From: a candidate division FCPU426 bacterium
Lineage (GTDB): Bacteria; Oederibacteriota; Muellerivitia; Muellerivitales; Muellerivitaceae
DNA length: 64,000 nucleotides
NCBI GenBank assembly: GCA_963771075.1
Contig: CAVYSE010000027.1
Span: 1-64,000, forward strand
Direction: 5' to 3'
Position 1 is the stretch's first letter; every line of letters begins with the position of its first letter. The notes beneath the pieces are model-generated. The model did not search any database. It saw only the letters and a program-made list of their open reading frames with translations, and was not told where the DNA came from. This document shows positions 29,313 to 44,899 of this stretch, one piece after another. The translations under genes were made by a program, and so were the position numbers.

Positions 29313-31841
29313 GTGCCCGTTGAAACCAAATCCGTTACCGTCTTGTCGATCCCACTTGAAGAGCTTTATGTCCCCGATTGGAACCCCCGAAAGATCATTG
29401 AACGGTCGGCCTTAGTCAGCCTAATTGAGTTCATGCGGTTGGGTGGGCCGATCCCCCGCATCGTCGTCTTGCGGGGCCAGGAAAAGGGGCTTTGGGCGAT
29501 CATCGAAGGCCAGATGCGCTTCTTGGCCGCCCAGAGTTTGGGTTGGACCCACCTGGATGCCGAGGAGTTTGAAGGAACCCTGGAACAAGCCAAGGACCGG
29601 GCTAATACCTCCAACAATCACAACCCACCCTACTGGCTGGATAAGTACGAGGGATGGAATTCCCGGTTTAAGGACCACCCCGAATGGGACAGCCAAGCCA
29701 AGAAGGCCACCGGGTTAGGGATATCGGATGATTGGGTTAACCGGTGTGTCAACCTCTTGGATGTTTTGAACGAAGCTTCAAGGAAGTTGATTAGGGAATC
29801 AAAGGGTGGAATAGGTATTAAGACGGGTCTTAATTTGTCGGATAAGGATATATCTCCCGAACAGTTCGGGAATAATATGAACGATGACAATTATTCAGGG
29901 TTCGAAAATCGAACCGATTGGGAATTAACCGAACGAGTTGCTTTTGAACTCACCCGGCTTTTGCCCAATCGGGTTTTGGAACCGGCGCAGAGGGTCCCGA
30001 TCCAGGATCAGGCGTTCAAGATTCTCCAAACCGTCATCGCACGGCGAATGACCTCGGCCCAGGTAGCCGCCCATGTAAAGTCGGTTAAGGCTGGCAACGA
30101 CCCGGCCAGGGTCGAAGACAAAGCATTTGCCACCCCTGTCCCGAACTTTCAAGGTGAGGGCCGCGGTTTGATTGCACCCGGTTCTAAAAAAGAACCGGGT
30201 GAAGTTTCCGTGTTTTGGGGCACCATGGCCGGCATCCCCTGGATCAAGGCCATTCGGGCCAAGATCAAGGCAAGTCAAGACCCCACCCTCTGGGAAAAGC
30301 TGTTCCTGGTGGCGGCCTTCTTTGGCCGGATCTTGCATTGGACCTGGCATAAGATATGGCCTCTGACCAAGAAGTCCATCGGCTGGGTTGGGCGACTTCT
30401 AAAAAAGGCTTTGAACGGCACCCTAAGATTCTTGGGGGAGATGGTGGGCAAGCCCGCCAAGAAAATAGCCCAGGGCGTTGTGGGAATCGCCTTGGTGGTG
30501 GGCCTAGCCTATGGACTCTATCTATTCTTCTTCCACCCCGCGGGGATAAGGGGCTTGTTGGGCCGGGCCACCTCTGGGGTAATCCATTGGGTGGGATCTT
30601 GGGTAAACCCGTGGGACGGTGATAATAAATCCATTCCTCAACCACTACCCACGACAATTCCAACCCCGGGAACTTCAAATCCAACACAAAGACACGAAGA
30701 CACAAAGGAAGGCGCGAATGTTGGTTCCAGTGAAACCCAAAACCCAACAACGGCTCGAAAAACTCCTAACTCCTCACTCCCCCCTGGCCCGAAACCTCAG
30801 GATGAGGGCCGAGGTTTGGGCGGCCCAGACCATTCAGGGTCTGGGCTAACTCCTAACTCTCCAGCTGCAACTCCTAACGGCGAAGCCGCCCTGAGGGGCT
30901 CGAAGAGCCGCTCGAAGGGCTCCTTACTCCAATCATCAGTGGTCGCACCAGCTTCTTCCTCTAGCTCTGTTCTCCAATCCGCACCTGGAGCACCCGCCAC
31001 GGGAGAAGAGGCGGCGTGGGTGGCCGAACTCATCCCCGCTTTTCCCCCGCCCTTCCTGGTGAAGCCTTTGGATATTCAGCCCGACCCAACCATTTCCCCC
31101 CTCATGGTCCAGAAAAGGCTTTACGAAATCCAGGACCCCGAAAGAATCCGCGTTTACGTGGGGCATGACCGTCAAGGGGTGAAATCCATGAACGTGGACG
31201 ATGGGGGAATGGACCTTTTCTTCAACGGCTCTTTTGGAGGTCTGCTGGGCGATTCATCCAGCTTTCGGTTCTTCTGGGAAGACGTGCAGGGCATCCGCCT
31301 GGCGACAGTGGAGGTTTCGGGCGACAAGCCGCAAACGCTCTGCTTTTGCGCCCTGGAAGTGAAGACCAAGAAAAAAATGGCGGCCTTCGAGTGCGAGCCG
31401 GGGGACATGACCCATTTGGTGTCGGCCCTGGCGGCGCAGTTTAAAAGCTCCACGAAAAGGGAGCTTTCGGTGGCGCCCCTGCCTTACCTGAACCAGGGTT
31501 TGTGGCTGGGCGAGCAGAACCAGGTAGATGGGCTGTGGAATGAAAGCCCGGCGGGGCGGTCGCAAGAGGTGAAACTGCACTATTCGCTGACGGACTGGAA
31601 AAGACCCTCGACCGGCGGGGGAATCCATCTGGGCGATTATCTTTGGGGCCTGGGTGTGAACAAGGACGAGCAAACCCGGAAGGAAGTATTGCTCAGGCAG
31701 TTGGGCGGGGCGGCCTCGGGGCCGGCGACCCTATTCGTGGTTGGCCCGTTCGATTGGCGCAAGGCCCAGGAAGCCGCGACCGGATCCGGCAACGACCCCT
31801 TCAACCCGCCCCGCAGGGCGGTACGGCTGGTGGCGCCGTGA
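29313..31841 (+). CDS. ParB/Srx N-terminal domain and HTH fused to TM segment(s), a Pro/Ser/Thr linker and a C-terminal globular domain
   Basis: NPRK, IIEGQMRFLAA, SQAKKATGLGISDDWV, hydrophobic VVGIALVVGLAYGLYLFFF; GGAGG before the GTG start. Confidence 0.65.
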   Translation: MPVETKSVTVLSIPLEELYVPDWNPRKIIERSALVSLIEFMRLGGPIPRIVVLRGQEKGLWAIIEGQMRFLAAQSLGWTHLDAEEFEGTLEQAKDRANTSNNHNPPYWLDKYEGWNSRFKDHPEWDSQAKKATGLGISDDWVNRCVNLLDVLNEASRKLIRESKGGIGIKTGLNLSDKDISPEQFGNNMNDDNYSGFENRTDWELTERVAFELTRLLPNRVLEPAQRVPIQDQAFKILQTVIARRMTSAQVAAHVKSVKAGNDPARVEDKAFATPVPNFQGEGRGLIAPGSKKEPGEVSVFWGTMAGIPWIKAIRAKIKASQDPTLWEKLFLVAAFFGRILHWTWHKIWPLTKKSIGWVGRLLKKALNGTLRFLGEMVGKPAKKIAQGVVGIALVVGLAYGLYLFFFHPAGIRGLLGRATSGVIHWVGSWVNPWDGDNKSIPQPLPTTIPTPGTSNPTQRHEDTKEGANVGSSETQNPTTARKTPNSSLPPGPKPQDEGRGLGGPDHSGSGLTPNSPAATPNGEAALRGSKSRSKGSLLQSSVVAPASSSSSVLQSAPGAPATGEEAAWVAELIPAFPPPFLVKPLDIQPDPTISPLMVQKRLYEIQDPERIRVYVGHDRQGVKSMNVDDGGMDLFFNGSFGGLLGDSSSFRFFWEDVQGIRLATVEVSGDKPQTLCFCALEVKTKKKMAAFECEPGDMTHLVSALAAQFKSSTKRELSVAPLPYLNQGLWLGEQNQVDGLWNESPAGRSQEVKLHYSLTDWKRPSTGGGIHLGDYLWGLGVNKDEQTRKEVLLRQLGGAASGPATLFVVGPFDWRKAQEAATGSGNDPFNPPRRAVRLVAP

Positions 31842-31887
31842 GGGGGGCGGCTGTTATTTGGTTTGAATAATTCGGAGGAGGGAGAAC

Positions 31888-32427
31888 ATGGGCGAAATGA
31901 TCGCGGGGTATAAAATCGAGGACAAAATCCTATTTCTTCGGGGCTTCAAGGTGATGCTTTCAAGCGATTTGGCCTAGCTTTATGGGGTCGAAGTCAAGGC
32001 CTTGAACCGCGCTGTCAAACGGAACCGGGACCGGTTTCCGGTCGACTTCATGTTCCAACTGAACGCGAAGGAAGCGCAAAATTTGAAGCGCCATTTTGGC
32101 ACTTCAAGTTGGGGTGGTGCGCGTAGGGATCTGCCCTATGCCTTCACCGAACTCGGCGTGGCGATGCTTTCCAGTGTATTGAGAAGTAAAAAAGCAGTTC
32201 GTGTAAACATTGAAATCATGCGGGTTTTCTCCAGGGTGAGGGAAATGCTGGCCGCGAATAAGGATTTTGCCCGATGGCTGGAAGACCTGGAACGCAAATT
32301 CAACGCACATGACCACCAATTCCAAGCTGTGTTTGAGGCTATCCGCGAGATTATTCGGGTCCCGGAAAAAACCAAAAGGCGGATCGGGTTTTTGGAAGAA
32401 AAATCCGCAGCTTATCGGATCCGTTGA
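31888..32427 (+). pseudogene. ORF6N-domain DNA-binding protein with an in-frame amber codon
   Basis: IEDKILFLRGFKVMLSSDLA*LYGVEVKALNRAVKRN..RFPVDFMFQL..PYAFTELG; TAG at 31975-31977. Confidence 0.85.
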
Positions 32428-32686
32428 TAGATAATATAAAATAAAGAACTGACCCCGTTATTCTTCAAAAGAACGGGACAAACTCGAGAAAGAATTCAAG
32501 GGGACATTCGCAAAGAAGACCGAGAAGTATTTTGTCAGTACGCTCTGCCGGTCATGCTTTGAAGATTCGGTTTTCAGTGATACGCTAAGTTCTGTGAAAG
32601 ATGATGTTGACATTGAATCTGCATTTGAGCTTATCCAAATCTCGACGAATTCGGCGGAACGTTGAAAAATCCAATAATTACAGGCT

Positions 32687-32723
32687 CCTGCACATGGCTG
32701 TTTCAAAAAGGATGGTGTGCAAC
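32687..32723 (+). repeat. 37-bp dispersed repeat, copy A
   Basis: CCTGCACATGGCTGTTTCAAAAAGGATGGTGTGCAAC. Confidence 0.9.
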
Positions 32724-32820
32724 GTAATTTTGTTCGAAACGACGAAAAGCCCAATTCCTAGCAAGAAAAATGGATTTAAATATTTTTATACTACGGCTAA
32801 AAAACCAGAAAATATTTCTT

Positions 32821-33057
32821 TTAAGGCCGGAGCTTTAGTGCTTCAGTGTCTTTGGGCGATGTCGGAGAACTCAAACAGAAATTTTTATAGGGTTCCTTAA
32901 AATAGAGATCCAATGCCGCCCTCACGATTTGTGATTTGGTTTTCCTCACGCCGCTTTTGCCTGCGTTAACGACTTCTTCGGAAATTTGTTGGATATGGGT
33001 TTTGGATACCATGAAATCAGCGCGAATCAATTTATATAGGGAATGCTCCTCACTCAT
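32821..33057 (-). CDS. Small ribbon-helix-helix-like protein, 3' end probably disrupted
   Basis: TKSQIVRAALDLYF; GAGG RBS upstream. Confidence 0.45.
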   Translation of the reverse strand: MSEEHSLYKLIRADFMVSKTHIQQISEEVVNAGKSGVRKTKSQIVRAALDLYFKEPYKNFCLSSPTSPKDTEALKLRP

Positions 33058-33431
33058 AGAGTTACCTCACGTGAGATTTGATTATAAAGATAACTTACTT
33101 GTTTATATGTTTTTGGCAATCCACTTTATATGTGTACGTCAAAAATAGTGCAAAAAATGGGCGATTAATTGCTTGGAATTGATTCGTTTTTAAGGAACGA
33201 CTGAAGATCCGAAATTTTCGCGGTAAACCAAAGAGTGGAAAGAAAGCAAACTGTTTTTTTTAATCGATTCCTTCTTCATCCAGGATGAGTCGTAGGGTTC
33301 TAAAGCGCGTTTCCAAGATACCATCTATAAGCACCGCTATCCAGTTAATGGTCGATGAATCCCTGGCAAGCCCAGTGCGATTGCAGACGGTTTGTGAAGC
33401 AAAGCACGCCAACGACTAATGGAAAGAATGA

Positions 33432-33466
33432 AGCCGGAGTGGCATGAAAACCCCGCCACTCCGGCT
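33432..33466 (-). terminator. Hairpin after the S53 protease gene
   Basis: AGCCGGAGTGGC/GCCACTCCGGCT 12-bp stem. Confidence 0.6.
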
Positions 33467-33479
33467 CCGCCAGACGCCC

Positions 33480-36400
33480 TCAATGGATGACGATGATTTT
33501 TCCGGTCCGAGTTTTAAAGCCGGTACCGTCATTCGCTTGGAGGGTATAGATATAAAGCCCGCTTGCCACCAACGAGCCCATTTGGTTCTCCAGCGGCCAT
33601 TCCAGGGTATTCAAACCGGGATTACCGGCTACGCTTGCCTGATAGACCAATTCACCCATCACGGTGTAAATCGCGAGGCGTAACTGGACCGATTTCCCGA
33701 GTTCCACCTGCAACTTCACCGGAACCCCGTTCCGGGAGATGTTCGGCACCGCCGTCACGTCCAGGCCTGCGCCTGAGGTATCCGGAACCGGAACAACGGT
33801 CAGGCTAGGACTGGGGGTTGGGGTGGGTGTGATGCCCTCTTCCGACATGCGCATGGCGTCGGACATGACCGCACCATGTGGGGTGGGGGTTTTCGTCGGC
33901 GTGGACGTTCGCGTCGGTGTACGGGTGAAGGTAGAGGTCCTCGTAAAGGTCGGTGTATTGGTGTGGGTATAGGTGGGCACAGGCGGGTTGAGTTGGCAAG
34001 TCACCCCGCACTGACCGTAGACCCTTACGTTGTGTGAGGAGGCTCCGCTGTCCCCCTGGTAGAGGTTGCCGCAAATGTCGAAAGCGATTCCCATTGAATC
34101 CTGCGACTTGCCCGAGCCCGTACCGGAGGCCCCCCCGATTGTCATTAGAGCGGAACCGGTGTTGTTATCAACGATGATCTGGCTGGTCACAGGGCTGGAT
34201 GCTATGACCTCGCTTTGGTACACGTTGTTATCCAGACCGACGGCTAGTCCGGTCGCGGTTACGCCCGTCGCACTCGTCCCGTTGGGATACCACATGCCGA
34301 GCCATGGGTCGCCAAAATGAGGCCCTAGGATATAACTCGATACCCTTGGATAGGAATTAAGGACGGTTGTGGGGTAATCCGTCACGAATAGGTAGTTTCC
34401 TTCCCGGTCGACAGCGACCTGTACGGGGTCCACGTATGTACCTGAGAAGGTGTTGACGTAACTGATCCCACCCGAGTTGGGGTTTAGGTTCATTTCCACC
34501 ACCCGGTTGTTGCCAGTATCCGCAACATAGAAGTCGTAGTTGGAATCAGTTGCGATGCCACGCGGCGAACTGAAATTAATGGAGTTTGCCGACCCCACGG
34601 AAACCCATTGCCCGGCACCTTCGAAGAAGTAGAGAATATCTACCCGGTTATGTCCGGTGTCAGTGACGAAGATGTCTCCATTGGTGTCGGTGGCGATACC
34701 GGAGGGATTGCTGAACGCCCATGCTGGGTTGAAGTACCAAGTCGACGCGCCGCTCCCCGTGGAAAGGATCATGTAATCCACCCGCGTTGAGTCTAAGACG
34801 AACATCGTGGCACCCACAATGGCCTCGGCGATAGGCTTCGTGAATGAGAACCCCGTGGGAGTGATAGTCGCCTTCGGCGCGTAACAGGGTGTCGGAAGGG
34901 AGGTCGGCGTCGGGGTCGCCGCATCGGAGCAAGGCGCGATCCAGGTGTCGCCGTACGGCCCGCTTATCCCCGAACAATTTGTACCGTTACCGCCGAAAAC
35001 ATAAGGGTTTCCGTTGAACGAAAGCGCCCCGAAATAGGACCGGACTGGGAAGGCGTTCGCATTCGCCTCGGTCCAAGTGGAGCCGTTGGTCGAGGTCCAA
35101 ACGTCGCCGTGGAAACCGCAACCTCCGCCGCTATATCCTCCGGTCAGCCACATCTGGCCACAGTAGACGAACGCCTGTGACCCTTGCCTGGCAGCGAAAG
35201 CCGCTGCGGAGGTGGCCACAGACCAATTTGCACCGTCGGACGAAGAATATACGTCGGTCAGGGGGCCGCTATTGTAGCCAGCGATCACCCACATTTCCGA
35301 GTTATAGACCAGGCAGCTTTCACCACTGCGGGCAGGAAACGGAGTTACCTGGTTCACTTGCGTCCAAGTCACCCCGTTGGAGGAATTCCACACATCGTTT
35401 TGCGTGCTATCTACGCCGATCAGCCACATCTGGTTGTTGTACACGACTAATCCAAAGCCAGTCACCGCTGTAAAGATTGAAGTTCCCGAGGAGGGTACCG
35501 GCGTGACCTGGGACCAGTGAATCCCGTCGAAAGAATAGTTAACGTATTTATTGACGGTTCCTACTGTGTTGTCATTGGATTCCCCGCCGATTTCCCACAT
35601 CCGTGACCCCTTGCCGTCACCCGGATCAAAAGTCACCGCAGCCCCACCACACTCGGTGTAAGGCGCTGAGGAAGTCGTCCGGTACCATTGCATTCCATTG
35701 GCCGAACTCCAGACCTGTGGAATGGCGTTGCCAATAATGCTGTTTCCCGGAACTCCACCGATGGCCCACATCTTGTTCTGATAAACAAGACTCTGGAACG
35801 ATTCAATGGGTGGAAAATTGGACTTCAATTGGTCCCAGGAGGTCCCGTCCGCGCAGCAGGAAGGAGTCGGCGTGGGCGTGGGGGTGGGAGTTTCGTTCAA
35901 AAGACCCAGAATGTTATTGATGAGAGTGTAGCCGCTTGCGTTGGGGCTTCCCAGCCCGGTCGCCAGATCATACCCGGTGACCGCCGGGTACCCGTTGTTG
36001 CCGGTCGTAATGTCGTGGAAGTTGCTGGCGGGGTCGTAGTTTGTTGCTGTCCCTGCGATCCCATAAAGAAGTGGGTTCGCGAAGCCGACCGGTGGCTGGG
36101 CGTTCAACAGAGCCTGCTGGTTGGTCATGGCCATGACAGAGGCCCAAAGCGGCGTGGCCGCGCTTGTTCCTCCGATCAGCCCGATGGCCGCGCCGTCGAA
36201 GCTGATGTTGAAAATGGCGTCTCCCACCATGGAAACGTCCGGCAGGTTCCGGTAGCTCGTGGAACCCTTGCATGCGGTGGTGATGAAGGGCGATTGGTAG
36301 GTAGGAATAGTGATTCCCGGCAACGTGACGGGCACCGAGTAACCTTTCAAGATCCCACCCCCACTGGTTCCAATAGCGTATTGCCTCATCCACACTGTTT

Positions 36401-37730
36401 CAGAGCTGTAGTAAGGGTTAGAGCCCACCGCATTGGTAGACAACTCGGTGGCTCCCACGACCGTCATGTTATTCTCGTCGCGGATGTCCCCTGGATCGAC
36501 GGGATAGGCCCCCGAATCACCTGAGGCCTGGAAAAATGACTGGCCTTGTAGCGCCATCTCGGCCAGGGAAGCGGTCATGGAGGGATCGGTGTAGGAGATG
36601 AAGTCGGTCCAGGAACTACTCAACTGCTGGCAGAAGGGTGTACCCGGTGAGGGATTCGCCATATCAGCGAGGACGTCGTCGCCATAGGCTCCCTCGAACA
36701 CAATCACCTGGGCGCCCGGCGCCATGCACAGCACCATGTCGATGTCCAAAGCCACCTCGTCGTTCCCATATCCCGGCGCAACATCGAAATTGGAGTTGCT
36801 GTTCACGTAAACGCTTTGGACGATGGAGCCGATCGTGGACGAGTTAATCCCGTTTAAACCGGCTCCCGAAGCAACGCAGGTCGCGGCGTAGCTCAAAATG
36901 TCGTTTAGATAAAAACCGTCAAGCTCGAAAAGCCCTATCGCCTGGCCCGACCCGTCCAAGGTGCAACCTTGGGCGTAGGCATTGCGGAAATTATTCCCCA
37001 AGTATGTCGCGACCCCGTCATAGGTGGGTCCTGATCCAATATTGGCAACGCCCTTCGTCAACTTGGCCTGTGGTCCAGGAACGCCATGAGGCCCATGAAC
37101 TATGTTTGTTTTTGGCACGTTATAGTTTTCCAAGCCTGTCACATGGAGCAATTGCACATCCAAATCAACTGATGGCTCCCGGTCGGGAGAACGGAACTGA
37201 GTACCATCCGACCTCTTGTAATTACCCATCTTCACGTGGAATGCCTTCTCGATGTCAGCGACGTTACCACTCACGTCCAGAACAGCCCGGTTGCCGTAGT
37301 TTTGGATGACGGCGAGTTTGTGGTTTTTGGCGTAGGCAATAACGGCCTGGTAATCTTCCTCGGTCGGGCCGAACATTTGCGTGAATTTTTCCGGTGACAG
37401 GAACTGACGGTACCGGGGGCTTTTCTTGTCGTAACGGTCCTTGAGGAGATACTGCATGGCTTCGGAGTTTCGCAGGGGCAGGCTGATGGCCAAGTCGAGG
37501 TGGTCGGTGGACGCCATGTCCCCGATCCTTGTAGCCGTTGTAGCCTGTGGAGGGACGTGGCCTTTCATCGACTGACGGCCTGCGACTTGGGCCAGTGCCT
37601 CGGCTGGCGGACACACGAGCAAAAGAGCTAGCATGACCGACCCTAGGGTAGTTTTCCCTGCCAATCGCACCCAGGGGTGGAAAGCCCCGAAAAGTTTTAA
37701 TCCTCCGAACGTTTTTTTCGAACGTGTCAT
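33480..37730 (-). CDS. Secreted S53 (sedolisin/kumamolisin) peptidase with prodomain, Kelch-like and NHL propellers, PT linkers and a C-terminal FlgD-Ig-like domain
   Basis: EVALD, SGDSGA, GGTSAATP, GYDLATGLGSP; likely start ATG 37730 with GGAGG. Confidence 0.88.
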   Translation of the reverse strand: MTRSKKTFGGLKLFGAFHPWVRLAGKTTLGSVMLALLLVCPPAEALAQVAGRQSMKGHVPPQATTATRIGDMASTDHLDLAISLPLRNSEAMQYLLKDRYDKKSPRYRQFLSPEKFTQMFGPTEEDYQAVIAYAKNHKLAVIQNYGNRAVLDVSGNVADIEKAFHVKMGNYKRSDGTQFRSPDREPSVDLDVQLLHVTGLENYNVPKTNIVHGPHGVPGPQAKLTKGVANIGSGPTYDGVATYLGNNFRNAYAQGCTLDGSGQAIGLFELDGFYLNDILSYAATCVASGAGLNGINSSTIGSIVQSVYVNSNSNFDVAPGYGNDEVALDIDMVLCMAPGAQVIVFEGAYGDDVLADMANPSPGTPFCQQLSSSWTDFISYTDPSMTASLAEMALQGQSFFQASGDSGAYPVDPGDIRDENNMTVVGATELSTNAVGSNPYYSSETVWMRQYAIGTSGGGILKGYSVPVTLPGITIPTYQSPFITTACKGSTSYRNLPDVSMVGDAIFNISFDGAAIGLIGGTSAATPLWASVMAMTNQQALLNAQPPVGFANPLLYGIAGTATNYDPASNFHDITTGNNGYPAVTGYDLATGLGSPNASGYTLINNILGLLNETPTPTPTPTPSCCADGTSWDQLKSNFPPIESFQSLVYQNKMWAIGGVPGNSIIGNAIPQVWSSANGMQWYRTTSSAPYTECGGAAVTFDPGDGKGSRMWEIGGESNDNTVGTVNKYVNYSFDGIHWSQVTPVPSSGTSIFTAVTGFGLVVYNNQMWLIGVDSTQNDVWNSSNGVTWTQVNQVTPFPARSGESCLVYNSEMWVIAGYNSGPLTDVYSSSDGANWSVATSAAAFAARQGSQAFVYCGQMWLTGGYSGGGCGFHGDVWTSTNGSTWTEANANAFPVRSYFGALSFNGNPYVFGGNGTNCSGISGPYGDTWIAPCSDAATPTPTSLPTPCYAPKATITPTGFSFTKPIAEAIVGATMFVLDSTRVDYMILSTGSGASTWYFNPAWAFSNPSGIATDTNGDIFVTDTGHNRVDILYFFEGAGQWVSVGSANSINFSSPRGIATDSNYDFYVADTGNNRVVEMNLNPNSGGISYVNTFSGTYVDPVQVAVDREGNYLFVTDYPTTVLNSYPRVSSYILGPHFGDPWLGMWYPNGTSATGVTATGLAVGLDNNVYQSEVIASSPVTSQIIVDNNTGSALMTIGGASGTGSGKSQDSMGIAFDICGNLYQGDSGASSHNVRVYGQCGVTCQLNPPVPTYTHTNTPTFTRTSTFTRTPTRTSTPTKTPTPHGAVMSDAMRMSEEGITPTPTPSPSLTVVPVPDTSGAGLDVTAVPNISRNGVPVKLQVELGKSVQLRLAIYTVMGELVYQASVAGNPGLNTLEWPLENQMGSLVASGLYIYTLQANDGTGFKTRTGKIIVIH

Positions 37731-38174
37731 GCAATCCTCCGTGAATTCAAAAAAAGAAACGATCCAAAGAAAATGAAATCGGCATGGGTGTCGGTATTTC
37801 AAACTTGAACCAGGAAAATTTTACGGAAAAACCGGACGGGAAATTTTCTATGTGCTGTGTATGTGTATGCTTTTGGTGCAAGAAAGGAAAAGGAAAAACC
37901 CGTGCTTCCGTCGACCACGCTCAACCCTTCATCACGGTTTGGATACTGACTTATCCGCCTTTACCCCGAAGTGATTTAGGCGATTGTGTTAATATATTTT
38001 TGACGGGACGCTGTAGGCCTGTTGCAAGGTTGTCCGCGAATAGGTACCCGCCGTGGACAAGGAAAAGGGCGGAAAGTACTACACCCTAGCGAATAGAAGA
38101 AAGCATGAAAAAAATAATATCCGATGTATGTGCTTTTAAACCTCGTTTAAGCCTATCCAATCTGTTGACCCTTC

Positions 38175-40247
38175 ATGGGCAAGTCCGGAAATCCTATGGA
38201 CTCGTTTAAAGGGGCGGTTCTCCCCGCCGCCAACCGTCGCCTGTTTTGGGTCCTGGCGCTCCTACCCGTCCTTTTGACAATCTTGTTCTACCTCCCCGTT
38301 CTGAGGAATGGATTTGTATATTCCTGGGATGACAGCGAGGTTATTTCAAACAACATTCATATCCGGTCATTCCGTTTTTCAAATCTCTATTGGATGTTCA
38401 CCGACATCACCACGGGGTACTGGATGCCGCTGACCTGGCTATCTCTTGCCCTGGATTACCAATGGGGCGGTCTCAACCCCATGGTCTACCATGGAACAAA
38501 TCTTCTATTACATAGCCTCAACACCCTGGTGGTTTTTTTCCTAGGCTATCGGCTGATTCCCCTGACCAACTTTATAGCTGGCACTCCGGGGGAAAATTCG
38601 CCTCGGAAAGGGGCTGTATCCGCAGCCTCCCTGACTGCGCTTTTGTTCGGGCTCCACCCCATTCACGTGGAAGCAGTCGCCTGGGCTACGGAAAGAAAGG
38701 ATATGCTATGCGGTTTATTTTTCCTCCTGAGCCTCTTGGCTTACCTGGGTTACGTCTCCGCCAAGGGAAAAAAACCGTTTCAATACGCCGCGTCACTGGG
38801 TTGCTTCTTATTGTCTCTTATGGCTAAACCCATGGCTGTGACGCTTCCGCTGGTTTTCCTTTTATTGGATGCGTGGCCGCTCAAGAGATTAAGGCTGGGT
38901 TGGGCCAAGGTTTTCTTGGAGAAAACGCCGTTTTTCCTCCTGTCCATCCTATCCGGCTGGCTGGCGGTCGCGGGCCAGACCCAAATGGAGGCGCTCCCAA
39001 GCCTTCAACAATTGAGCCTTCCTTACAGACTCATGAACGCTTGCCATTCACTGATTTTCTACTTGTCGGAGGTATTCGCGCCCGTCCATTTAGCCGCTTT
39101 CTATCCATTGCCATCGGAAGCGCAAGTTTATTCCCCCGGATACATCTTCTCGGGTATGGCCGTGGTCCTCCTCTCCATCGTTTGTTTTGTTTACCGTCAC
39201 AAGCGCCCTTATCTGGCGGTGGTTTGGCTGTTTTATATGGTGACCCTTACCCCGGTCATGGGCCTTTTTCAATCGGGAACACAAGCCGCCGCAGTCCGCT
39301 ATGCCTATCTCCCCCTTTTGGGATTCTTCTTTCTGATCGGTTCGTGCGTTTCCTTTACGTTTTCAAAGTACCGGCTGGTGCTAGGCCTTTTGTCTCTCCT
39401 CCTGGCGGTTTTCATGGGCTTTGGGACAGTCCGTCAAATTGAAGTTTGGAGGGATTCCCTGTCACTATGGGAAAACGCGGCAAGTGTGTATCCAGGTATT
39501 TCCGTGAAGATCCAATTGAACCTGGGTGAAAGTTATGCGTGGGCGGGACGTTTGGATGATGCCCTCCGGGCTTATGACTTGGCCGTCAATTTGCAACCGC
39601 CATTGTCCGGCCTCCATAACGGGCGGGGTGTCGTATTGAGCGCGATGGGCCGGATGGACGAGGCGGAAAAGGAATTCAAGTATGCCATTTCAGTAGACCC
39701 CCTCGATCCGCCCCCCCACCAGAACCTTTGGAAACTCTATGAACGGGAGGGGAAGCGGAATGCGGCCCTGGTGGAAATTCAGGAAGCGGTCCGATTGAAG
39801 CCGGATTCCGCCGTGTATCTCAGTGACCTAGGGGATGTCTATACCCAACTGAACAAGAAGAAGGAAGCCCAGGAGGCCTTTCTCCATGCCGTCCAATTGG
39901 ATCCATCCAATGCGCGATACCTGGTCGAACTGGCGGGTTCCTGGGAAAGTCTCGGAAAGATGGACGAGGCGGGTGCCTGTTACAAGCATGGAATGGTCCT
40001 CCATCCCCAAGAGCCGGTTTTTTACCTGAATTTGGGGGAAATGTATTTAAGCCGGGGCATGTTTTCCCAAGCCGTGGAAGTGTTGTCGAGGGCCATCCAA
40101 CTTTGGCCTGGAAATGCGGAAGCGGCCAAGTTATTGGGGGAAGCCTACCAAAAATCCGGGCAGTCCGGCTTGGCGGAGCAATATTTCGAAAAGGTCCAGG
40201 CCTTAAATGGCGGAACCGCGAATCATGTAAGGGATGATCGACCGTAA
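38175..40247 (+). CDS. TMTC-like multi-TM glycosyltransferase with C-terminal TPRs
   Basis: WDD, YWMPLTWLS, HPIHVEAVAWATERKD, KPMAVTLP, RYAYLP, TPR repeats. Confidence 0.8.
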   Translation: MGKSGNPMDSFKGAVLPAANRRLFWVLALLPVLLTILFYLPVLRNGFVYSWDDSEVISNNIHIRSFRFSNLYWMFTDITTGYWMPLTWLSLALDYQWGGLNPMVYHGTNLLLHSLNTLVVFFLGYRLIPLTNFIAGTPGENSPRKGAVSAASLTALLFGLHPIHVEAVAWATERKDMLCGLFFLLSLLAYLGYVSAKGKKPFQYAASLGCFLLSLMAKPMAVTLPLVFLLLDAWPLKRLRLGWAKVFLEKTPFFLLSILSGWLAVAGQTQMEALPSLQQLSLPYRLMNACHSLIFYLSEVFAPVHLAAFYPLPSEAQVYSPGYIFSGMAVVLLSIVCFVYRHKRPYLAVVWLFYMVTLTPVMGLFQSGTQAAAVRYAYLPLLGFFFLIGSCVSFTFSKYRLVLGLLSLLLAVFMGFGTVRQIEVWRDSLSLWENAASVYPGISVKIQLNLGESYAWAGRLDDALRAYDLAVNLQPPLSGLHNGRGVVLSAMGRMDEAEKEFKYAISVDPLDPPPHQNLWKLYEREGKRNAALVEIQEAVRLKPDSAVYLSDLGDVYTQLNKKKEAQEAFLHAVQLDPSNARYLVELAGSWESLGKMDEAGACYKHGMVLHPQEPVFYLNLGEMYLSRGMFSQAVEVLSRAIQLWPGNAEAAKLLGEAYQKSGQSGLAEQYFEKVQALNGGTANHVRDDRP

Positions 40248-40250
40248 TAA

Positions 40251-40287
40251 TAACAATGGGGCCAGGCCTACATATTACACTATATAA
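40251..40287 (+). repeat. Orphan copy of the RAYT left-end sequence
   Basis: 37 nt identical to 43325-43361. Confidence 0.9.
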
Positions 40288-40297
40288 TGAAAACAAA

Positions 40298-40380
40298 GGG
40301 GTCGGGCCAACACATTACACTTTAGAGACGATAATGGGCTGGTACGGAAATTCTAAAATGTAAAATGTAAGCCAGACCCC
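40298..40380. repeat. 83-bp REPIN/MITE-like inverted pair related to the RAYT ends
   Basis: GGGGTCGGGCCAACACATTACACTTTAGA ... TCTAAAATGTAAAATGTAAGCCAGACCCC, 23/29 inverted match. Confidence 0.8.
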
Positions 40381-40456
40381 TTCTTGTTTTTGGTTCACAA
40401 GGCGAGTTAAAACGAAATAGAGGCCAAAAGTAGTTATAATCACAAAGTCTTCCAAC

Positions 40457-40485
40457 TTGACAATGTGCAAAAAGTTGCATATCCT
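40457..40485 (+). promoter_or_regulatory. TA promoter with a palindromic operator
   Basis: TTGACA, 17 bp, TATCCT; ATGTGCAA-N4-TTGCATAT (40463-40482) spans the spacer and overlaps the -10. Confidence 0.7.
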
Positions 40486-40503
40486 AATAGGGAGCCTGAA
40501 TTC

Positions 40504-40806
40504 ATGCGTTATTTTGAAATGCCGCATTTCCAAAGGTTTAGCAGGAACCATTTAGGGGCCAGGGAATATGTGGCGTATCAATTGCAGATTAAGAAGATTT
40601 TCCTGGAGGTTAAGGAAAAGGGCCGGTTGGAAAAAGTCTTAAGGACCAAGGACGGGGAAGCCAGCATCACTTATTACTACTACGACCCCGCTGAAAAAAT
40701 CCTTTACGTCTTGGCGGGACATTTAACCCGGCCAGGAGAGCCAAGACCGGATGAAATAAAGGCCATTGAAGGCTATATCCGGCAGATTGAAGGGGGTAGG
40801 CCATGA
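40504..40806 (+). CDS. Putative RelE/HigB-like toxin (divergent)
   Basis: 100 aa, ITYYYY...ILYVLAG beta pattern, toxin-first overlap with an XRE gene. Confidence 0.55.
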   Translation: MRYFEMPHFQRFSRNHLGAREYVAYQLQIKKIFLEVKEKGRLEKVLRTKDGEASITYYYYDPAEKILYVLAGHLTRPGEPRPDEIKAIEGYIRQIEGGRP

Positions 40807-41150
40807 AAACTTTAAACAGGAAAGCGCCTTACGTTAAGGGCATGATTTCACACGAAGAAAGCATGAAACAATTGAAGAAGACTAGGCCGGAAGTCTACAA
40901 AGCTTTGAAAGACCCGGAACCAAGGGCTTGCTTGGCCTGGAACTTGATGGAATACCGGCATGAGAAAGGGTTAACCCAAAAATCCTTGGCTGATAAGGCC
41001 GGTGTCAGCCTTCGAACGGTGGCCTACATCGAGGACTATGAGGAAAAATTCAGCCCCAATATCAAGATTGTTCAGGCAATAGCTAAAGCATTGGGAGTGA
41101 AATTCACTGACCTTTTCGAAACGGTGGACATAACTAAAGCTCATAGTTAG
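40803..41150 (+). CDS. XRE-family HTH protein, putative HigA-like antitoxin
   Basis: RHEKGLTQKSLADKAGVSLRTVAYIE...PNIKIVQAIAKALGV. Confidence 0.85.
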   Translation: MKTLNRKAPYVKGMISHEESMKQLKKTRPEVYKALKDPEPRACLAWNLMEYRHEKGLTQKSLADKAGVSLRTVAYIEDYEEKFSPNIKIVQAIAKALGVKFTDLFETVDITKAHS

Positions 41151-41238
41151 GCCGGGTGCACCTATGACGGAACAGAAAAACTAAGTAAAAAAAGATCACT
41201 TTAACAATTTAATAAGAAAAAAAAGGGGTCGGGCCCTT

Positions 41239-41275
41239 CTTGTGCATGGCCCTCGCAAAAAGGATGGTGTGCAAC
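41239..41275 (+). repeat. 37-bp dispersed repeat, copy B
   Basis: CTTGTGCATGGCCCTCGCAAAAAGGATGGTGTGCAAC. Confidence 0.88.
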
Positions 41276-41711
41276 TGATTTAGCCAAGACTGCTCTTAAG
41301 GTTGATTCAGATACTGCGAAACTATCTGACATTTGGAAAGCTGCTCAAGCCGTCTACGGCAAATACGCTCCAGAAGTATTGCCTTTTGTGCAAAAGCAAC
41401 TCGAAGATGTTGGGCTTTCAGATTTTTAAGGAGATTTATGTATTTTGCTTTGATGAAAGGAAGGGGCGTTGTTGTGGGTTACCCCTATCCAGATAATAGT
41501 TATTTAGCTGAAATCTATGACATGAAAAAAATGTGTGGGTACTGTGGTCGAAATAAAATTCAATTAAGAGACATTTGTTTAACAAAAGGATTTTCAGACA
41601 ATTATGATTTCTTTAGAACGAATGGGATAAGTGAGTTGTTTTGCAAGGAGGAAGTTGCAAAAAAAATTGAAGCTGCAAAATTATCCGGTGTTTTCTTTCA
41701 AGATATTTATT

Positions 41712-42766
41712 CCCGAGTTCCATAAGTAAGTGCAACACTCAGTGCAAGAAGAAAGCCGCCTCCATAGGATAGGCGGCCATGAAAAAAAACTACAAGCATT
41801 TAAGCGTTGAAGAAAGAGATCACTTGGCCGTTTTGAAGGGGAAAGGTCATGGGGTCCGGGATATCGCCAGAATCCTCAAGCGTTCCCCATCCACCATCTC
41901 CCGCGAACTCAAGCGCAACGCCCCAACCATCCGCACGGGTTATTACTTAGCCCACCGTGCCCACCTACGATATATCGTCCGTAACCAGCAACGGGCACGC
42001 CGTTTACGCCTGAAAACAAAGCGAATTCGTGCCTACGTCCGCCGTCAATTGAAACGAGGTTGGTCTCCTGAACTCATTTCGGGTCGTTGGAGCTGCCTAC
42101 ATCCCAAGCAAACCATTGGCCCCGAAGCCATCTACCAGTGGATTTACATTGAGGCCACTGATTTGATCTCTTACCTCGTTCGACACCACCGGCAACGTCT
42201 CTCTTTCGGCCACAGCCGTAAGCACGCCAAAAACCATATTCCAGGCCGTGTTTCCATCGACAAAAGGCCCAAGGCCGTCAACCAACGCAAGCAGTTCGGC
42301 CATTGGGAAACCGACACCATGGTCTCCCGTGAAAGCAAAGTCGCCATGCGGGCTCTCGTCGAACGTCAAAGCCGTTTTTCCAAGTTGGGAAAGCTCAAAC
42401 GAAAAACAGCTGCCCAAATGAGTCACAGCCTCAATCGTACTTTAGGCCGCTTCCCTCAAGAAGCTCGTCTGAGTTTGACCTACGACAATGGAACCGAAAA
42501 CACCAACCACCTGGAAACCAACCGCGTGCTTGGTACAAAATCCTTTTTCTGTGCGCCTTTCCACAGTTGGGAAAAAGGCACTGTAGAAAATACCATTGGT
42601 CTTGTTCGCCGTTATTTGCCCAAAAAGACTGACCTTGCTAAAGTATCTCTCAAAGAATTCAAAGCCATCGAAAGATGGCTCAATCACAGGCCCAGAAAAT
42701 GTTTGGGTTTTAAAACTCCGGCGGAAGTCTTCCGGCGAAGTGTTGCACTTACTCCGTGAATTCAGC
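41712..42766 (+). mobile_element. IS30-family insertion sequence
   Basis: Imperfect 28-bp terminal IRs with a perfect AGTAAGTGCAACACT core; flanking ATT 3-bp duplication (41709-11 and 42767-69). Confidence 0.88.
41779..42759 (+). CDS. IS30-family transposase
   Basis: RSPSTISRELKRN, WSPELI, GHWETD, TYDNGTE, WEKGTVEN, NHRPRKCLG. Confidence 0.95.
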   Translation: MKKNYKHLSVEERDHLAVLKGKGHGVRDIARILKRSPSTISRELKRNAPTIRTGYYLAHRAHLRYIVRNQQRARRLRLKTKRIRAYVRRQLKRGWSPELISGRWSCLHPKQTIGPEAIYQWIYIEATDLISYLVRHHRQRLSFGHSRKHAKNHIPGRVSIDKRPKAVNQRKQFGHWETDTMVSRESKVAMRALVERQSRFSKLGKLKRKTAAQMSHSLNRTLGRFPQEARLSLTYDNGTENTNHLETNRVLGTKSFFCAPFHSWEKGTVENTIGLVRRYLPKKTDLAKVSLKEFKAIERWLNHRPRKCLGFKTPAEVFRRSVALTP

Positions 42767-43166
42767 ATTATAGAAAAGAGCGATCAAAAGAATTAATGCG
42801 TGGTTTTTTGCAGATGAGGATCGAGAAAAAAATTTCCATGGGGTTAGAAAATCTTTCAAAATTACAACGGATAAATTGTCCTGTTCTAAAAGTTCCTATT
42901 TATGGTTGTTTGGAAAAACCTTGTGGGAAGTATATATTTTCATTTCCGGACGATTTGAACGCAACGAATCTTAAGTCGGGATCGGATTTCGTTTTGGCTG
43001 ATGAATGGTTGGGGGATGGCGGGTTAGCTTTTAATCAAATTCTTGTTTCTGAAAAATTCAAAGAATTGTACGAAATAGAGGGCTGGAGGGGTTTGGAAAT
43101 CAATTCTGTTTGGAAAATAAGAGGGGGTAAGGAGAGTGCTAATTAGAAGTTTAGCAGGAATTTTTA

Positions 43167-43203
43167 CCTGCACATGGCCCTCGCAAAAAGGATGGTGCGC
43201 AAC
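43167..43203 (+). repeat. 37-bp dispersed repeat, copy C
   Basis: CCTGCACATGGCCCTCGCAAAAAGGATGGTGCGCAAC. Confidence 0.9.
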
Positions 43204-43270
43204 ATTTATCCATACGCTCCAAGAGTTGATCGGGGGTCAGATCGTAGCCGGTTTCAGTTTGGAAGGGTTC

Positions 43271-43307
43271 CCTGCACATGGCTGTTTCAAAAAAGATGGT
43301 GTGCAAC
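43271..43307 (+). repeat. 37-bp dispersed repeat, copy D
   Basis: CCTGCACATGGCTGTTTCAAAAAAGATGGTGTGCAAC. Confidence 0.9.
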
Positions 43308-43331
43308 AGCCTAAGGGGGATTTGTAACAAT

Positions 43332-44346
43332 GGGGCCAGGCCTACATATTACACTATATAAAATGGAGAAAACATTTAAACTGTAGCCATGCCAAGGCCT
43401 AAACGGATTCATTACGAGGGAGCGGTGTACCACGTCACCTCGCGCGGGAACGAGCGGCGCAAGATCGTCATGGACGACACGGACCGCTGGATGTTCGTGA
43501 GGCTCCTGGGGGAAATGGTCGGGGAAAACGGGGTGGTTTGCCACGCCTGGGTACTCATGGACAACCATTACCACCTGTTGCTGGAAACGCCAGGGGCGAA
43601 CCTTTCCCTGGCCATGAAGCATTTGAACGCCCTCTACACACAAAAGTTCAACAAGAAGCACCACCGCAACGGACATCTGTTCCAAGGCCGATTCAAGGCC
43701 ATCGTGGTTGAGAAAGAAAGTTATTTGAAGGAATTGTGCCGGTACCTGGTCTTGAACCCGGTGAGGGCCCGGATGGTCAAACACCCGAAAGCGTGGAAAT
43801 GGAGCAGTTACAGGGCGACGGTGGGGCTGGAAAGGCCTGAAAAATGGCTGGAAACGGATTGGATTTTAGGCCAGTTCAGGAAAGAGAAGAAAGAAGCCCA
43901 AAAAGCCTTTGTGTCATTCGTGGCGGAGGGGATGGGAAAAAAGGAATCCCCCTGGGAGAACTTGTCTAACCGGGTCTACCTGGGCGGGGAAGGTTTTTTA
44001 AGTCACGTGCACGAGGTAGGCCAAAAACACAAGCATTTGGATGTGCCGAAATATCAAAAACACGTGTTGAAACAGGATCCGGAGGCGGTTCTGAAAAAGG
44101 TGGCGAAGGTTTATGGGGAAAAGCCGGAAGAGGTATTGCGTGCGGGGCGAAGAAGGAGCGAGGCGCGGGCAGTGGCGATTTACCTGCTCAAGAAAGAATC
44201 GGGCTTAAGCCTGGGGGAAATCGGGAAAAGAATGGGGGTCGGTTTTTCGGCGGTGGGGAACCAATGGTCGAAGGTCAAAAGAAGGCTGGCCGAGGACCCC
44301 AAGTTCGGCCGGATGATTATATTGTGTAAAATGTAGGCCTGGCCCC
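43332..44346 (+). mobile_element. RAYT-like Y1 transposase unit bounded by 30-bp inverted repeats
   Basis: GGGGCCAGGCCTACATATTACACTATATAA (43332-61) matches the reverse complement of 44317-46 at 28/30. Confidence 0.85.
43389..44336 (+). CDS. REP-associated tyrosine (HUH Y1) transposase with a C-terminal DnaA-C-like HTH
   Basis: YHVTSRGN, LMDNHYHLL (HUH), GHLFQGRF, RYLVLNPVRA, WSSY; C-terminal ARAVAIYL..LSLGEIG. Confidence 0.9.
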   Translation: MPRPKRIHYEGAVYHVTSRGNERRKIVMDDTDRWMFVRLLGEMVGENGVVCHAWVLMDNHYHLLLETPGANLSLAMKHLNALYTQKFNKKHHRNGHLFQGRFKAIVVEKESYLKELCRYLVLNPVRARMVKHPKAWKWSSYRATVGLERPEKWLETDWILGQFRKEKKEAQKAFVSFVAEGMGKKESPWENLSNRVYLGGEGFLSHVHEVGQKHKHLDVPKYQKHVLKQDPEAVLKKVAKVYGEKPEEVLRAGRRRSEARAVAIYLLKKESGLSLGEIGKRMGVGFSAVGNQWSKVKRRLAEDPKFGRMIILCKM

Positions 44347-44385
44347 TGACATGCGCAGAATCGCCAAAGTCGAGTAAGTAACATG

Positions 44386-44410
44386 GGAACCGAGGGTTCC
44401 GCAAAGGGGA
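44386..44410 (+). repeat. 25-bp direct repeat, right island boundary; includes the RBS of the EVE gene
   Basis: Identical to 28933-28957. Confidence 0.9.
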
Positions 44411-44414
44411 AAAA

Positions 44415-44897
44415 ATGGGCGTGTGGGACAAGGAATACAGACACTGGTTGATGAAAGCTGAGCCCGACGTTTATCCGGTCGAACAGTGGAAGAAAGACAA
44501 GATCACCTTTTGGGACGGGGTGCGAAATTACACCGCCCGGAATTTCATGCGGGACAAGATGAAAAAGGGCGATGGGATGCTTTTCTATTATTCAGGAGGC
44601 AAACCCTCAGGCATAGCCGGGGTGGGGGAGATTGTGAAGGAAGGCTACCCCGACCACACGGCCTTTGATGCCAAAGATGTGCATTACGACCCCAAGAGTG
44701 ACCCCGCGAAACCCTCCTGGTACATGGTGGATGTAAAGTACGTCAGGGCCTGCAAGCAGATTATTCCCCTCGATTTTTTAAAGAAGGTCCCGGGGCTCAA
44801 GAATATGGCTCTCTTTAAATATTCCAGGCTTTCCGTCCAGCCGGTCACGGCCAAGGAGTGGGAAATTATCCAGGGCCTCATCGACGCCCAGGAATAG
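44415..44897 (+). CDS. EVE domain-containing protein
   Basis: WLMKAEP, WDGVRNYTARN, YDPKS, SRLSVQPV. Confidence 0.92.
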   Translation: MGVWDKEYRHWLMKAEPDVYPVEQWKKDKITFWDGVRNYTARNFMRDKMKKGDGMLFYYSGGKPSGIAGVGEIVKEGYPDHTAFDAKDVHYDPKSDPAKPSWYMVDVKYVRACKQIIPLDFLKKVPGLKNMALFKYSRLSVQPVTAKEWEIIQGLIDAQE

Positions 44898-44899
44898 TA

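What the first reader, a model, noticed from the sequence alone, without database searches (positions are those of the whole stretch)
32687..43307. Unclassified 37-bp repeat family marking gene-fragment junctions
Seen: four same-orientation copies (32687, 41239, 43167, 43271) with consensus CCTGCACATGGC-(TGTTTC or CCTCGC)-AAAAAGGATGGTGTGCAAC. They have TGCACA/TGTGCA inverted arms and a 6-nt core with two alleles in order A,B,B,A. Copies A and C start about 20 nt after a stop codon (32665, 43146). Copies A and B are followed immediately by ORF fragments with no start of their own, in different frames relative to the repeat. Spacing is 67 bp to 8.5 kb, so this is not a CRISPR array, and the geometry does not fit attC. 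Inference: a recombination or insertion site; the two core alleles could define which sites pair.
Basis: partly seen in the sequence, partly recalled or inferred. Interest (0 to 1): 0.8.

Follow-up and report, generated by a model that had tools for sequence, protein, structure and literature searches.

The report
Scattered Cas1-Cas2 repeats flanking kilobase DNA
The four repeats are pieces of a CRISPR-type array whose DNA-inserting enzymes (Cas1-Cas2, encoded elsewhere in the genome with no killing enzyme beside them) appear to store pieces of DNA tens to thousands of bases long instead of the usual ~35, which would make it a natural machine for capturing gene-sized DNA.

Summary
The four copies are real and are 4 of 29 in the genome. 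They are CRISPR-type repeats. On another contig an intact cas1-cas2 pair ends 22 nt before a copy, and copy A follows a truncated cas2. In 9 related genomes, 69 of 71 neighbouring pairs point the same way, with gaps of 30 bp to 26 kb (median 1.8 kb). Two whole inserts (559 and 386 bp) are slices of DNA found elsewhere in the same genome, cut exactly at both repeats. The Cas1 lies in an effector-less, mostly Patescibacteria clade with the same layout, while outgroup Cas1s have ordinary arrays. The core alleles cluster by array, so they read as lineage marks rather than pairing codes. Truncated copies abut REP-like hairpins, which explains the scattering. Best reading: a Cas1-Cas2 integrase without length control. 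This is inferred from genomes only. The scan found this system before in other genomes; I found no paper describing it. Added here: a large non-CPR host, self-capture of the cas module, and REP-linked dispersal.

The parts
32449..32456 (-). REP-like motif 7 nt before the point where the cas2 fragment is cut off
   Evidence: same junction in a contig of run X3; the REP label is my inference
32464..32665 (+). 3' fragment of cas2, ending at its stop codon; no cas1 in the window
   Evidence: 94% identical to G000:C1:44521-44298; intact protein has the Cas2 fold
32666..32686 (+). 21-nt leader ending in GCT
   Evidence: sequence; GCT precedes the first repeat in 22 of 28 clade loci
32687..32723 (+). 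repeat copy A, leader-proximal, core TGTTTC
32724..41238 (.). 8.5-kb A-to-B segment, probably composite: start-less 58-aa ORF end, kumamolisin-type peptidase (33480-37802 -), TPR protein (38175-40247 +), REP-like motifs (40258, 40298, 41225), small ORF plus HTH_3 pair (40465-41150)
   Evidence: the TPR gene has an 83% homologue in G066, a genome without the repeat
41239..41275 (+). repeat copy B, core CCTCGC, first 6 nt replaced at a REP-like junction
   Evidence: same junction in a contig of run X1
41276..43166 (+). 1891-bp B-to-C insert: start-less 50-aa ORF end, Imm11-like gene (from 41438) interrupted by an insertion sequence (about 41712-42766), and a 116-aa ORF; 36% GC outside the IS
   Evidence: Imm11 18.7 bits, below cut-off; IS 99.9% identical to G000:C3:183946-185000; GC
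43167..43203 (+). repeat copy C, core CCTCGC
43204..43270 (+). 67-bp insert; source not found in the genome
43271..43307 (+). repeat copy D, core TGTTTC (same as A), one substitution in the A-rich block
43332..44346 (+). Y1 (HUH) transposase gene 43389-44336 between REP-like motifs; RAYT-like; candidate for cutting and moving array pieces
   Evidence: Pfam Y1_Tnp 44.8 bits and Bac_DnaA_C; motifs; RAYT label and role are inferred

Best explanation
The 37-mer is the repeat of an effector-less Cas1-Cas2 module. The intact copy is at G000:C1:45662-44320, followed by a 22-nt leader and the first repeat. SHOWN: gene-leader-repeat linkage, clade-wide layout, direct orientation, exact junctions, and no Cas4 or effector at the loci examined. 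INFERRED: the integrase joins the two ends of a DNA fragment to the two borders of the leader-proximal repeat and duplicates the repeat, as in CRISPR adaptation, but without a length ruler, trimming or PAM. Inserts therefore run from 30 bp to several kb and cut through genes. Substrates include the host's own DNA and DNA of relatives, and sometimes the cas module or another strain's array, which seeds new leader-repeat sites and nests foreign alleles (one reading of A,B,B,A). A second process, joining at REP-like hairpins (probably by the RAYT-like Y1 transposases) or at a 28-bp cassette palindrome, truncates and scatters the pieces. The window is such a patchwork, which the cas1-cas2 on another contig would have to serve in trans. 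Most likely consequence: uptake and storage of gene-sized DNA rather than RNA-guided immunity.
For: cas1 passes Pfam and TIGR00287 cut-offs, fits no subtype model, and keeps E162, H222 and E237 in 8 of 8 aligned homologues (catalytic assignment recalled). The next ORF folds like Cas2: 15 of the 16 chains listed down to rank 20 are Cas2 by title or by my recall. A repeat lies 333-372 nt after cas1 in 28 of 35 clade loci; none has a ~73-bp period, against 31 of 65 outgroup loci. The clade has SH-aLRT 100. 69 of 71 adjacent pairs within 30 kb are direct; 2 gaps are of canonical size (30, 38 bp) and 44 exceed 1 kb. A 559-bp insert is an internal slice of a 1.7-kb multicopy element, with 0-1 mismatches in 3 source copies, both ends exact and no repeat at the source. 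A 386-bp insert in complete chromosome G099 is 383/386 identical to part of its own ndk gene, both ends exact. A 1081-bp insert in G067 is its own cas1 3' part, cas2 and leader at 100%. There is no flanking duplication (0 of 29) and no fixed flanking base. All 112 sequences after repeats differ. Loose ends pile up at the repeat borders in 4 runs of 4 studies. This cas1 (at least 96% identical) is in 5 of 9 repeat-bearing genomes of the family and 0 of 22 without the repeat.
Against: No biochemistry or expression data. Only two inserts, plus the cas self-copy, are matched to a source at both ends. In G000 only 15 of 58 flanks have any homologue reaching the repeat edge; 4 of those 15 are leader copies, and only 5 are at least 97% identical non-leader matches. 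Gaps above about 8 kb hold secondary insertions and REP junctions and need not be single events. No insert is shared between genomes, so leader-end polarity could not be tested. 4 of 9 repeat-bearing genomes lack this cas1 in their assemblies. Several clade loci with at least 8 kb of sequence show only one repeat (L040, L041, L045, L049, L140). A xerC-like gene is next to cas1 in 3 of 21 loci and a serine recombinase in 1. G000 also has a complete-looking type I-E system with a different repeat. Two of 71 pairs are inverted.
Confidence: 0.8

Rival explanations
1. An ordinary adaptation module that lost its effector. The long gaps come from later invasion by IS elements, cassettes and illegitimate recombination inside a normal short-spacer array.
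For: Stand-alone adaptation modules are published (PMC5704561, passages). Two canonical-size gaps exist. IS elements and REP junctions do occur inside gaps.
Against: Only 2 of 69 gaps are 45 bp or less. Matched inserts begin and end exactly at repeat borders with no short spacer remnant, and are internal IS or gene slices without ends. The layout holds across the clade, while 31 of 65 outgroup loci have normal arrays.
Confidence: 0.08
2. The repeat is a site for a site-specific recombinase. Cassettes carry one site each, the core sets partner choice, and cas1-cas2 is a passenger.
For: Inverted arms and a variable centre; 2 of 8 predicted pairs covary. xerC lies beside cas1 in 3 of 21 loci. The genome has a real cassette system on another palindrome.
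Against: Inserts are cut mid-gene and their sources carry no site. The first copy has a fixed position behind cas2 across phyla. Alleles track arrays. No recombinase is conserved at the loci, and none was annotated next to the modules of this family. At 37 bp and without GTTRRRY it does not fit attC (definition recalled).
Confidence: 0.06
3. Cas1-dependent one-ended (half-site) integration: the enzyme joins one DNA end to a repeat border and host repair or recombination resolves the rest, giving rearrangements and duplications rather than true two-ended spacers.
For: Many junctions match a source on one side only, such as G000:C8:90555 with flanks from two different loci. The cas locus itself is over-represented among the pieces. 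Repeats are scattered and two pairs are inverted.
Against: Two inserts have both ends exact between full direct repeats. Compact arrays of 8-10 repeats sit behind a single cas2 in Patescibacteria.
Confidence: 0.15
4. A non-autonomous mobile repeat (MITE or REP-like) or an assembly artefact.
For: 29 dispersed copies; several lie near contig ends.
Against: No target duplication (0 of 29). No pair of flanks maps to one uninterrupted locus in the genome. Copies are co-oriented and linked to cas2. The layout also occurs on contigs of 0.4-2 Mb and on a complete chromosome. Window junctions recur in separate assemblies, though these may be the same strain or sample.
Confidence: 0.02

Closest known systems
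CRISPR adaptation module (Cas1-Cas2, leader, 37-nt repeat), including stand-alone modules
   Same: cas1-cas2 operon, leader, direct repeats and unique inserts. In Pyrococcus furiosus, specificity comes from the leader-repeat junction and an A-rich mid-repeat block (PMC6698737, passages). Here GCT at the junction and an A-rich block are the conserved parts. Effector-less modules are known (PMC5704561, passages).
   Different: Inserts are 30 bp to over 10 kb instead of ~35 bp. There is no cas4, which sets spacer length in P. furiosus, in 4 of 5 genomes tested. The leader is only about 20 nt. Cas2 is divergent (below the Pfam cut-off; invariant W-E-T-R where SSO1404 has Y-D-I). Copies are scattered and the module copies itself.
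Casposons (casposase, a Cas1 homologue)
   Same: A Cas1-family enzyme integrates long DNA site-specifically and duplicates the target (14-15 bp; PMC6977970, passages). A casposase can integrate TIR-less DNA, including a gene, in vitro (PMC7786333, abstract).
   Different: Here the enzyme is a CRISPR-type Cas1 with Cas2, encoded outside the inserts. The duplication is 37 bp, inserts are arbitrary and cumulative, and no polB was found among the 77 upstream ORFs.
Integrons and cassette arrays
   Same: A fixed enzyme gene followed by a growing array of foreign DNA separated by repeats.
   Different: No IntI and no attC geometry. Inserts are not whole-gene cassettes and carry no site at their source (integron features recalled).
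REP/RAYT systems
   Same: A Y1 transposase between short hairpins lies next to copy D, and such hairpins mark the truncation points.
   Different: They explain the truncation and scattering, not the repeat itself. I saw RAYT papers only as a search listing, and subfamily membership was not tested.

Membership tests
CRISPR adaptation module | Cas1 with intact catalytic residues | tested here: met
   PF01867 225 bits; TIGR00287 241.9 against cut-off 71.7; E162, H222, E237 invariant in 8 of 8
CRISPR adaptation module | Cas2 encoded directly after cas1 | tested here: met
   PF09827 17.2 bits, below cut-off 23.8, but the model (pLDDT 72) matches Cas2 structures first
CRISPR adaptation module | Leader followed by direct repeats with unique inserts | tested here: met
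CRISPR adaptation module | Spacers of fixed short length (regular interspacing) | tested here: not met
   2 of 69 gaps at 45 bp or less; median 1792 bp
CRISPR adaptation module | New inserts added at the leader end | tested here: inconclusive
   no shared inserts among 112; different leader copies are followed by different DNA
CRISPR adaptation module | Cas1-Cas2 catalyses the insertion | not testable with these tools
   needs an in vitro or heterologous assay
CRISPR-Cas immune system | Cognate effector module | tested here: not met
   0 of 77 upstream ORFs (up to 4 per locus, 21 loci) hit a cas family, though many hit nothing. Complete chromosome G099 has no Cas4, Cas12f-TNB, RAMP, Cas5, Cas9 or Cas12a-RuvC match. 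The Cas9 and Cas12a controls had no over-cut-off positive, and Cas13 and Cas10 were not searched. G000 has a separate type I-E system.
CRISPR-Cas immune system | Array transcribed and processed to crRNA | not testable with these tools
CRISPR-Cas immune system | PAM beside protospacers | tested here: inconclusive
   too few sourced inserts; no shared flank seen and no fixed base at insert ends
Casposon | Casposase with polB inside a TIR-bounded element | tested here: not met
   Cas1 groups with CRISPR Cas1 hits, has Cas2, and no polB among neighbours; no casposase was in the tree
Integron | IntI integrase and attC sites | tested here: not met
   no conserved tyrosine recombinase at the loci (xerC-like in 3 of 21); length and end motif do not fit attC (recalled); no Rfam match in 30000-46000
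MITE or IS end | Target-site duplication and empty sites | tested here: not met
   0 of 29 duplications; no joined flanks

The most novel reading that the evidence does not exclude
A CRISPR-derived, self-spreading gene-capture system. A Cas1-Cas2 integrase that needs no ends, PAM or fixed length inserts arbitrary kilobase DNA at a ~60-bp leader-repeat site. It captures its own genes to found new sites, has jumped from Patescibacteria into a large-genome soil lineage, and builds accessory islands of tens of kilobases there. It would be a new class of horizontal-transfer platform beside integrons, and a natural two-protein tool for site-specific insertion of long DNA.
Probability: 0.4. Interest if true: 0.93.

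Novelty: new variant of a known kind. Interest (0 to 1): 0.8.

Why it matters
Fixed spacer length is a basic rule of CRISPR adaptation. A natural Cas1-Cas2 that breaks it would show what enforces the ruler (Cas2 geometry, Cas4 trimming). It would make the proposed link between casposon transposition and spacer acquisition directly testable with two small proteins and a short target. It would also explain patchwork accessory regions that CRISPR finders miss because the spacing is irregular, and it could be a compact, site-specific integrase for gene-sized DNA.

Tried and rejected
Rfam over 30000-46000: no match at E up to 1. Viral contigs: no cas1 relative and no repeat. Single-sequence fold of Cas2: pLDDT 38, unusable; the alignment-based fold was used instead. 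Search for a longer relative of the 50-aa piece after copy B: none among 76 candidates, which is weak evidence, so its reading as the end of an interbacterial toxin gene rests only on the neighbouring Imm11-like gene. Promoter and terminator scan of the cas locus: at chance level. RNA runs held too small a share to use. The careful tree did not finish; the quick tree has SH-aLRT only, 42 rows picked from the fetched loci, with L063, L083, L093 and L124 dropped for stop codons. The source alignment printed for G099 failed because of a mismatch in the seed and was redone. A G067 insert that begins with 23 nt like cas1 has no further cas1 match and is not counted as self-capture. The claim that this Cas2 lacks the acidic residue was not adopted: E13 aligns with the Asp of SSO1404. 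No complex prediction was run. Literature searches that found no description: (judged from listings). Most subscription papers are outside the library and I read no supplements, so a mention in a CRISPR census table cannot be excluded.
Full report
Observation. The four copies are at the stated places, on one strand, with gaps of 8515, 1891 and 67 bp; shuffles give none. The genome G000 (4.39 Mb, 28 contigs; the window is C27) holds 29 copies with at most 3 mismatches outside the core, and the next best match has 9. One more copy is cut by the end of C13. Copies cluster and point the same way within a cluster: seven on C8, seven within 3.4 kb on C3 (gaps 94-899 bp), four here. Rfam has no match.

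What the repeat belongs to. A Cas1 search of the genome found two genes. One is part of a type I-E locus with its own 29-nt repeat. The other (C1:45662-44652, 336 aa) passes the general Cas1 models but no subtype model. It is followed by a 111-aa ORF, 22 nt, and a copy of the repeat. That ORF scores below the Cas2 cut-off, but its alignment-based model (pLDDT 72, residues 78-111 unreliable) matches Cas2 structures first. Window 32464-32686 is a 94% copy of the end of this cas2 and its leader.

Relatives. The repeat occurs in 9 of 99 genomes of the phylum, all in the window's family (8 of 30 others), and the reversed control pattern found none. The same cas1, 96-100% identical across four genera, is in 5 of those 9 and in none of the 22 without the repeat. 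Kin are not independent and several assemblies are fragmented. Homologues at 57-72% come mostly from Patescibacteria. In a quick tree of 42 rows they form one clade with the G000 protein nested inside (SH-aLRT 100, long stem), which suggests transfer from Patescibacteria; no rooting test was done. In 28 of 35 clade loci (some redundant, many short) a related 37-mer lies 333-372 nt after cas1. Eight of them show further direct copies, 140-8291 bp apart, and none has a ~73-bp period, while 31 of 65 outgroup loci do. The complete chromosome G099 has 8 repeats, all behind cas2, and a Taylorbacteria contig has 10, 254-5947 bp apart. None of 77 upstream ORFs from 21 loci hit a cas family, and G099 gave no match to six cas families.

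The inserts. In arrays pooled from G000, eight relatives and locus L038, 69 of 71 neighbouring pairs within 30 kb are direct. The gaps are: 2 up to 45 bp, 5 of 46-200 bp, 18 of 201-1000 bp, 31 of 1-5 kb and 13 above 5 kb. Three inserts can be traced whole. A 559-bp insert on C3 is an internal slice of a 1.7-kb element present three times elsewhere (family not tested); both ends meet the repeats exactly and the sources have no repeat. A 386-bp insert in G099 is part of its own ndk gene, 383 of 386 identical, with both ends exact. A 1081-bp insert in G067 is that genome's own cas1 from about codon 92 through cas2 and the leader. One-sided junctions add to this: at C8:90555 the left flank is 100% identical to C16 and the right flank 98.8% to C12, each ending at the repeat, and a dnaX-like piece (label from reading the translation), 74% identical to a gene on C11, is cut near its start. 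Overall 15 of 58 G000 flanks have a homologue reaching the repeat edge, 4 of them leader copies; the rest have no source in the genome. There is no target duplication and no fixed flanking base. All 112 sequences following a repeat differ, and contigs from four studies break off into unlike sequence at the repeat borders.

Alleles. G000 alone has 8 types. Neighbours share a type in 51 of 62 pairs in the five polymorphic genomes with multi-copy arrays, against 31.5 after shuffling within genomes. Minority types sit inside majority arrays, for example two G000-type copies inside a G067 array. This is what duplication at each insertion predicts, with foreign array pieces arriving by capture or recombination. 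For the window, A and D may flank one composite segment that holds a foreign B-C piece. That is an inference I could not test. Across the clade the ends and an A-rich block are conserved and positions 7-14 vary.

Why the copies are scattered. Copies with a truncated cas2 or leader have a REP-like or palindrome motif within 45 nt upstream in 8 of 11 cases (two are one duplicated event and one row is probably a chance leader match). Two further cases lacked the motif as defined. The four 5'-truncated repeats all have it, against 2 of 74 intact leaderless copies and 1.6% of random sites. The motif set was drawn up after viewing G000 junctions. Outside G000 it is present in 6 of 8 such rows, or 6 of 10. 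In the window these motifs cut off the cas2 fragment, replace the start of copy B, and bracket a Y1 transposase 24 bp after copy D. In five full modules of relatives, homology starts sharply at a 28-bp palindrome about 100 bp before cas1, so the module also travels as a cassette of another system.

Mechanism. Established for CRISPR adaptation: the two 3' ends of the incoming DNA attack the two borders of the first repeat, Cas4 sets spacer length in P. furiosus, and Cas1-Cas2 alone still integrates accurately (PMC6698737, passages). Casposases integrate long DNA with target duplication (PMC6977970, passages), including TIR-less genes in vitro (PMC7786333, abstract). I infer that this clade keeps the targeting but has lost length control. 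Absence of Cas4 (4 of 5 genomes) and a divergent Cas2 are candidate causes; neither was tested. With no effector and with self-derived inserts tolerated, immunity is unlikely. Whether the stored DNA is useful or only tolerated is open: many inserts are broken genes, while some hold whole genes or small operons.

Limits. Everything is genomic inference. The longest gaps are composite, polarity is untested, and a half-site mechanism could produce part of the pattern. The window itself has no cas1.

Known or new. Stand-alone adaptation modules are in print (PMC5704561, passages). Six searches showed no paper on kilobase spacers; PMC5294841 (passages) covers isolated cas loci and false CRISPRs, and I saw nothing on this in those passages. 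The scan's own notes describe the same system in other, mostly Patescibacteria, genomes. I had reached this reading before opening them, and they are not independent support. It works like CRISPR spacer acquisition, fails the fixed-length and effector tests for a CRISPR-Cas immune system, and is best filed as a new variant of the adaptation module, with a fair chance of being a distinct gene-capture system.

Noticed in passing
G000 C5:72466-95991, C2:54811-68402, C3:166-175 kb and others (91 sites; none in the window): A second repeat family: a 28-bp palindrome spaced 0.3-2 kb apart, apparently separating gene cassettes. The cas1-cas2 module of several relatives starts right after one. The scan noted it before (e1-6961481).
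   Followed up: partly
window 41712-42766 and G000:C3:183946-185000: The same IS (IS30-like by recall; Pfam HTH_38 and rve) interrupts an insert here and the type I-E CRISPR array, 99.9% identical.
   Followed up: partly
window 29313-32462: An 842-aa ParB-N protein and an ORF6N gene with many diverged copies in the genome; several cas2-leader fragments lie next to such copies.
   Followed up: partly
G000 C3:1-3100 and C13:1-1536: Near-identical (97.8%) duplicated stretches ending in the same truncated cas2-leader-repeat; duplication or strain mixture.
   Followed up: no
L208, L211, L213, L219: Single clade-type repeats in four Alphaproteobacteria-labelled genomes, with no cas1 or cas2 in the fetched flanks (up to 5 kb).
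   Followed up: partly
L056 and L128: A Verrucomicrobiota-labelled clade member with a diverged repeat and a second copy in inverted orientation.
   Followed up: no
L072: An outgroup cas1 locus with an 18-mer repeated three times about 2 kb apart; not examined.
   Followed up: no
L049, L054, L130: A xerC-like gene lies divergently next to cas1 in three loci.
   Followed up: no
window 33480-37802 (-): A 1440-aa kumamolisin-type peptidase with beta-propeller and NHL regions and Pro-Thr linkers inside the A-to-B segment.
   Followed up: no
L172 and L177 (G067): Two cas1 copies carry an internal TAG according to the genome search: inactivated copies or sequencing errors.
   Followed up: no
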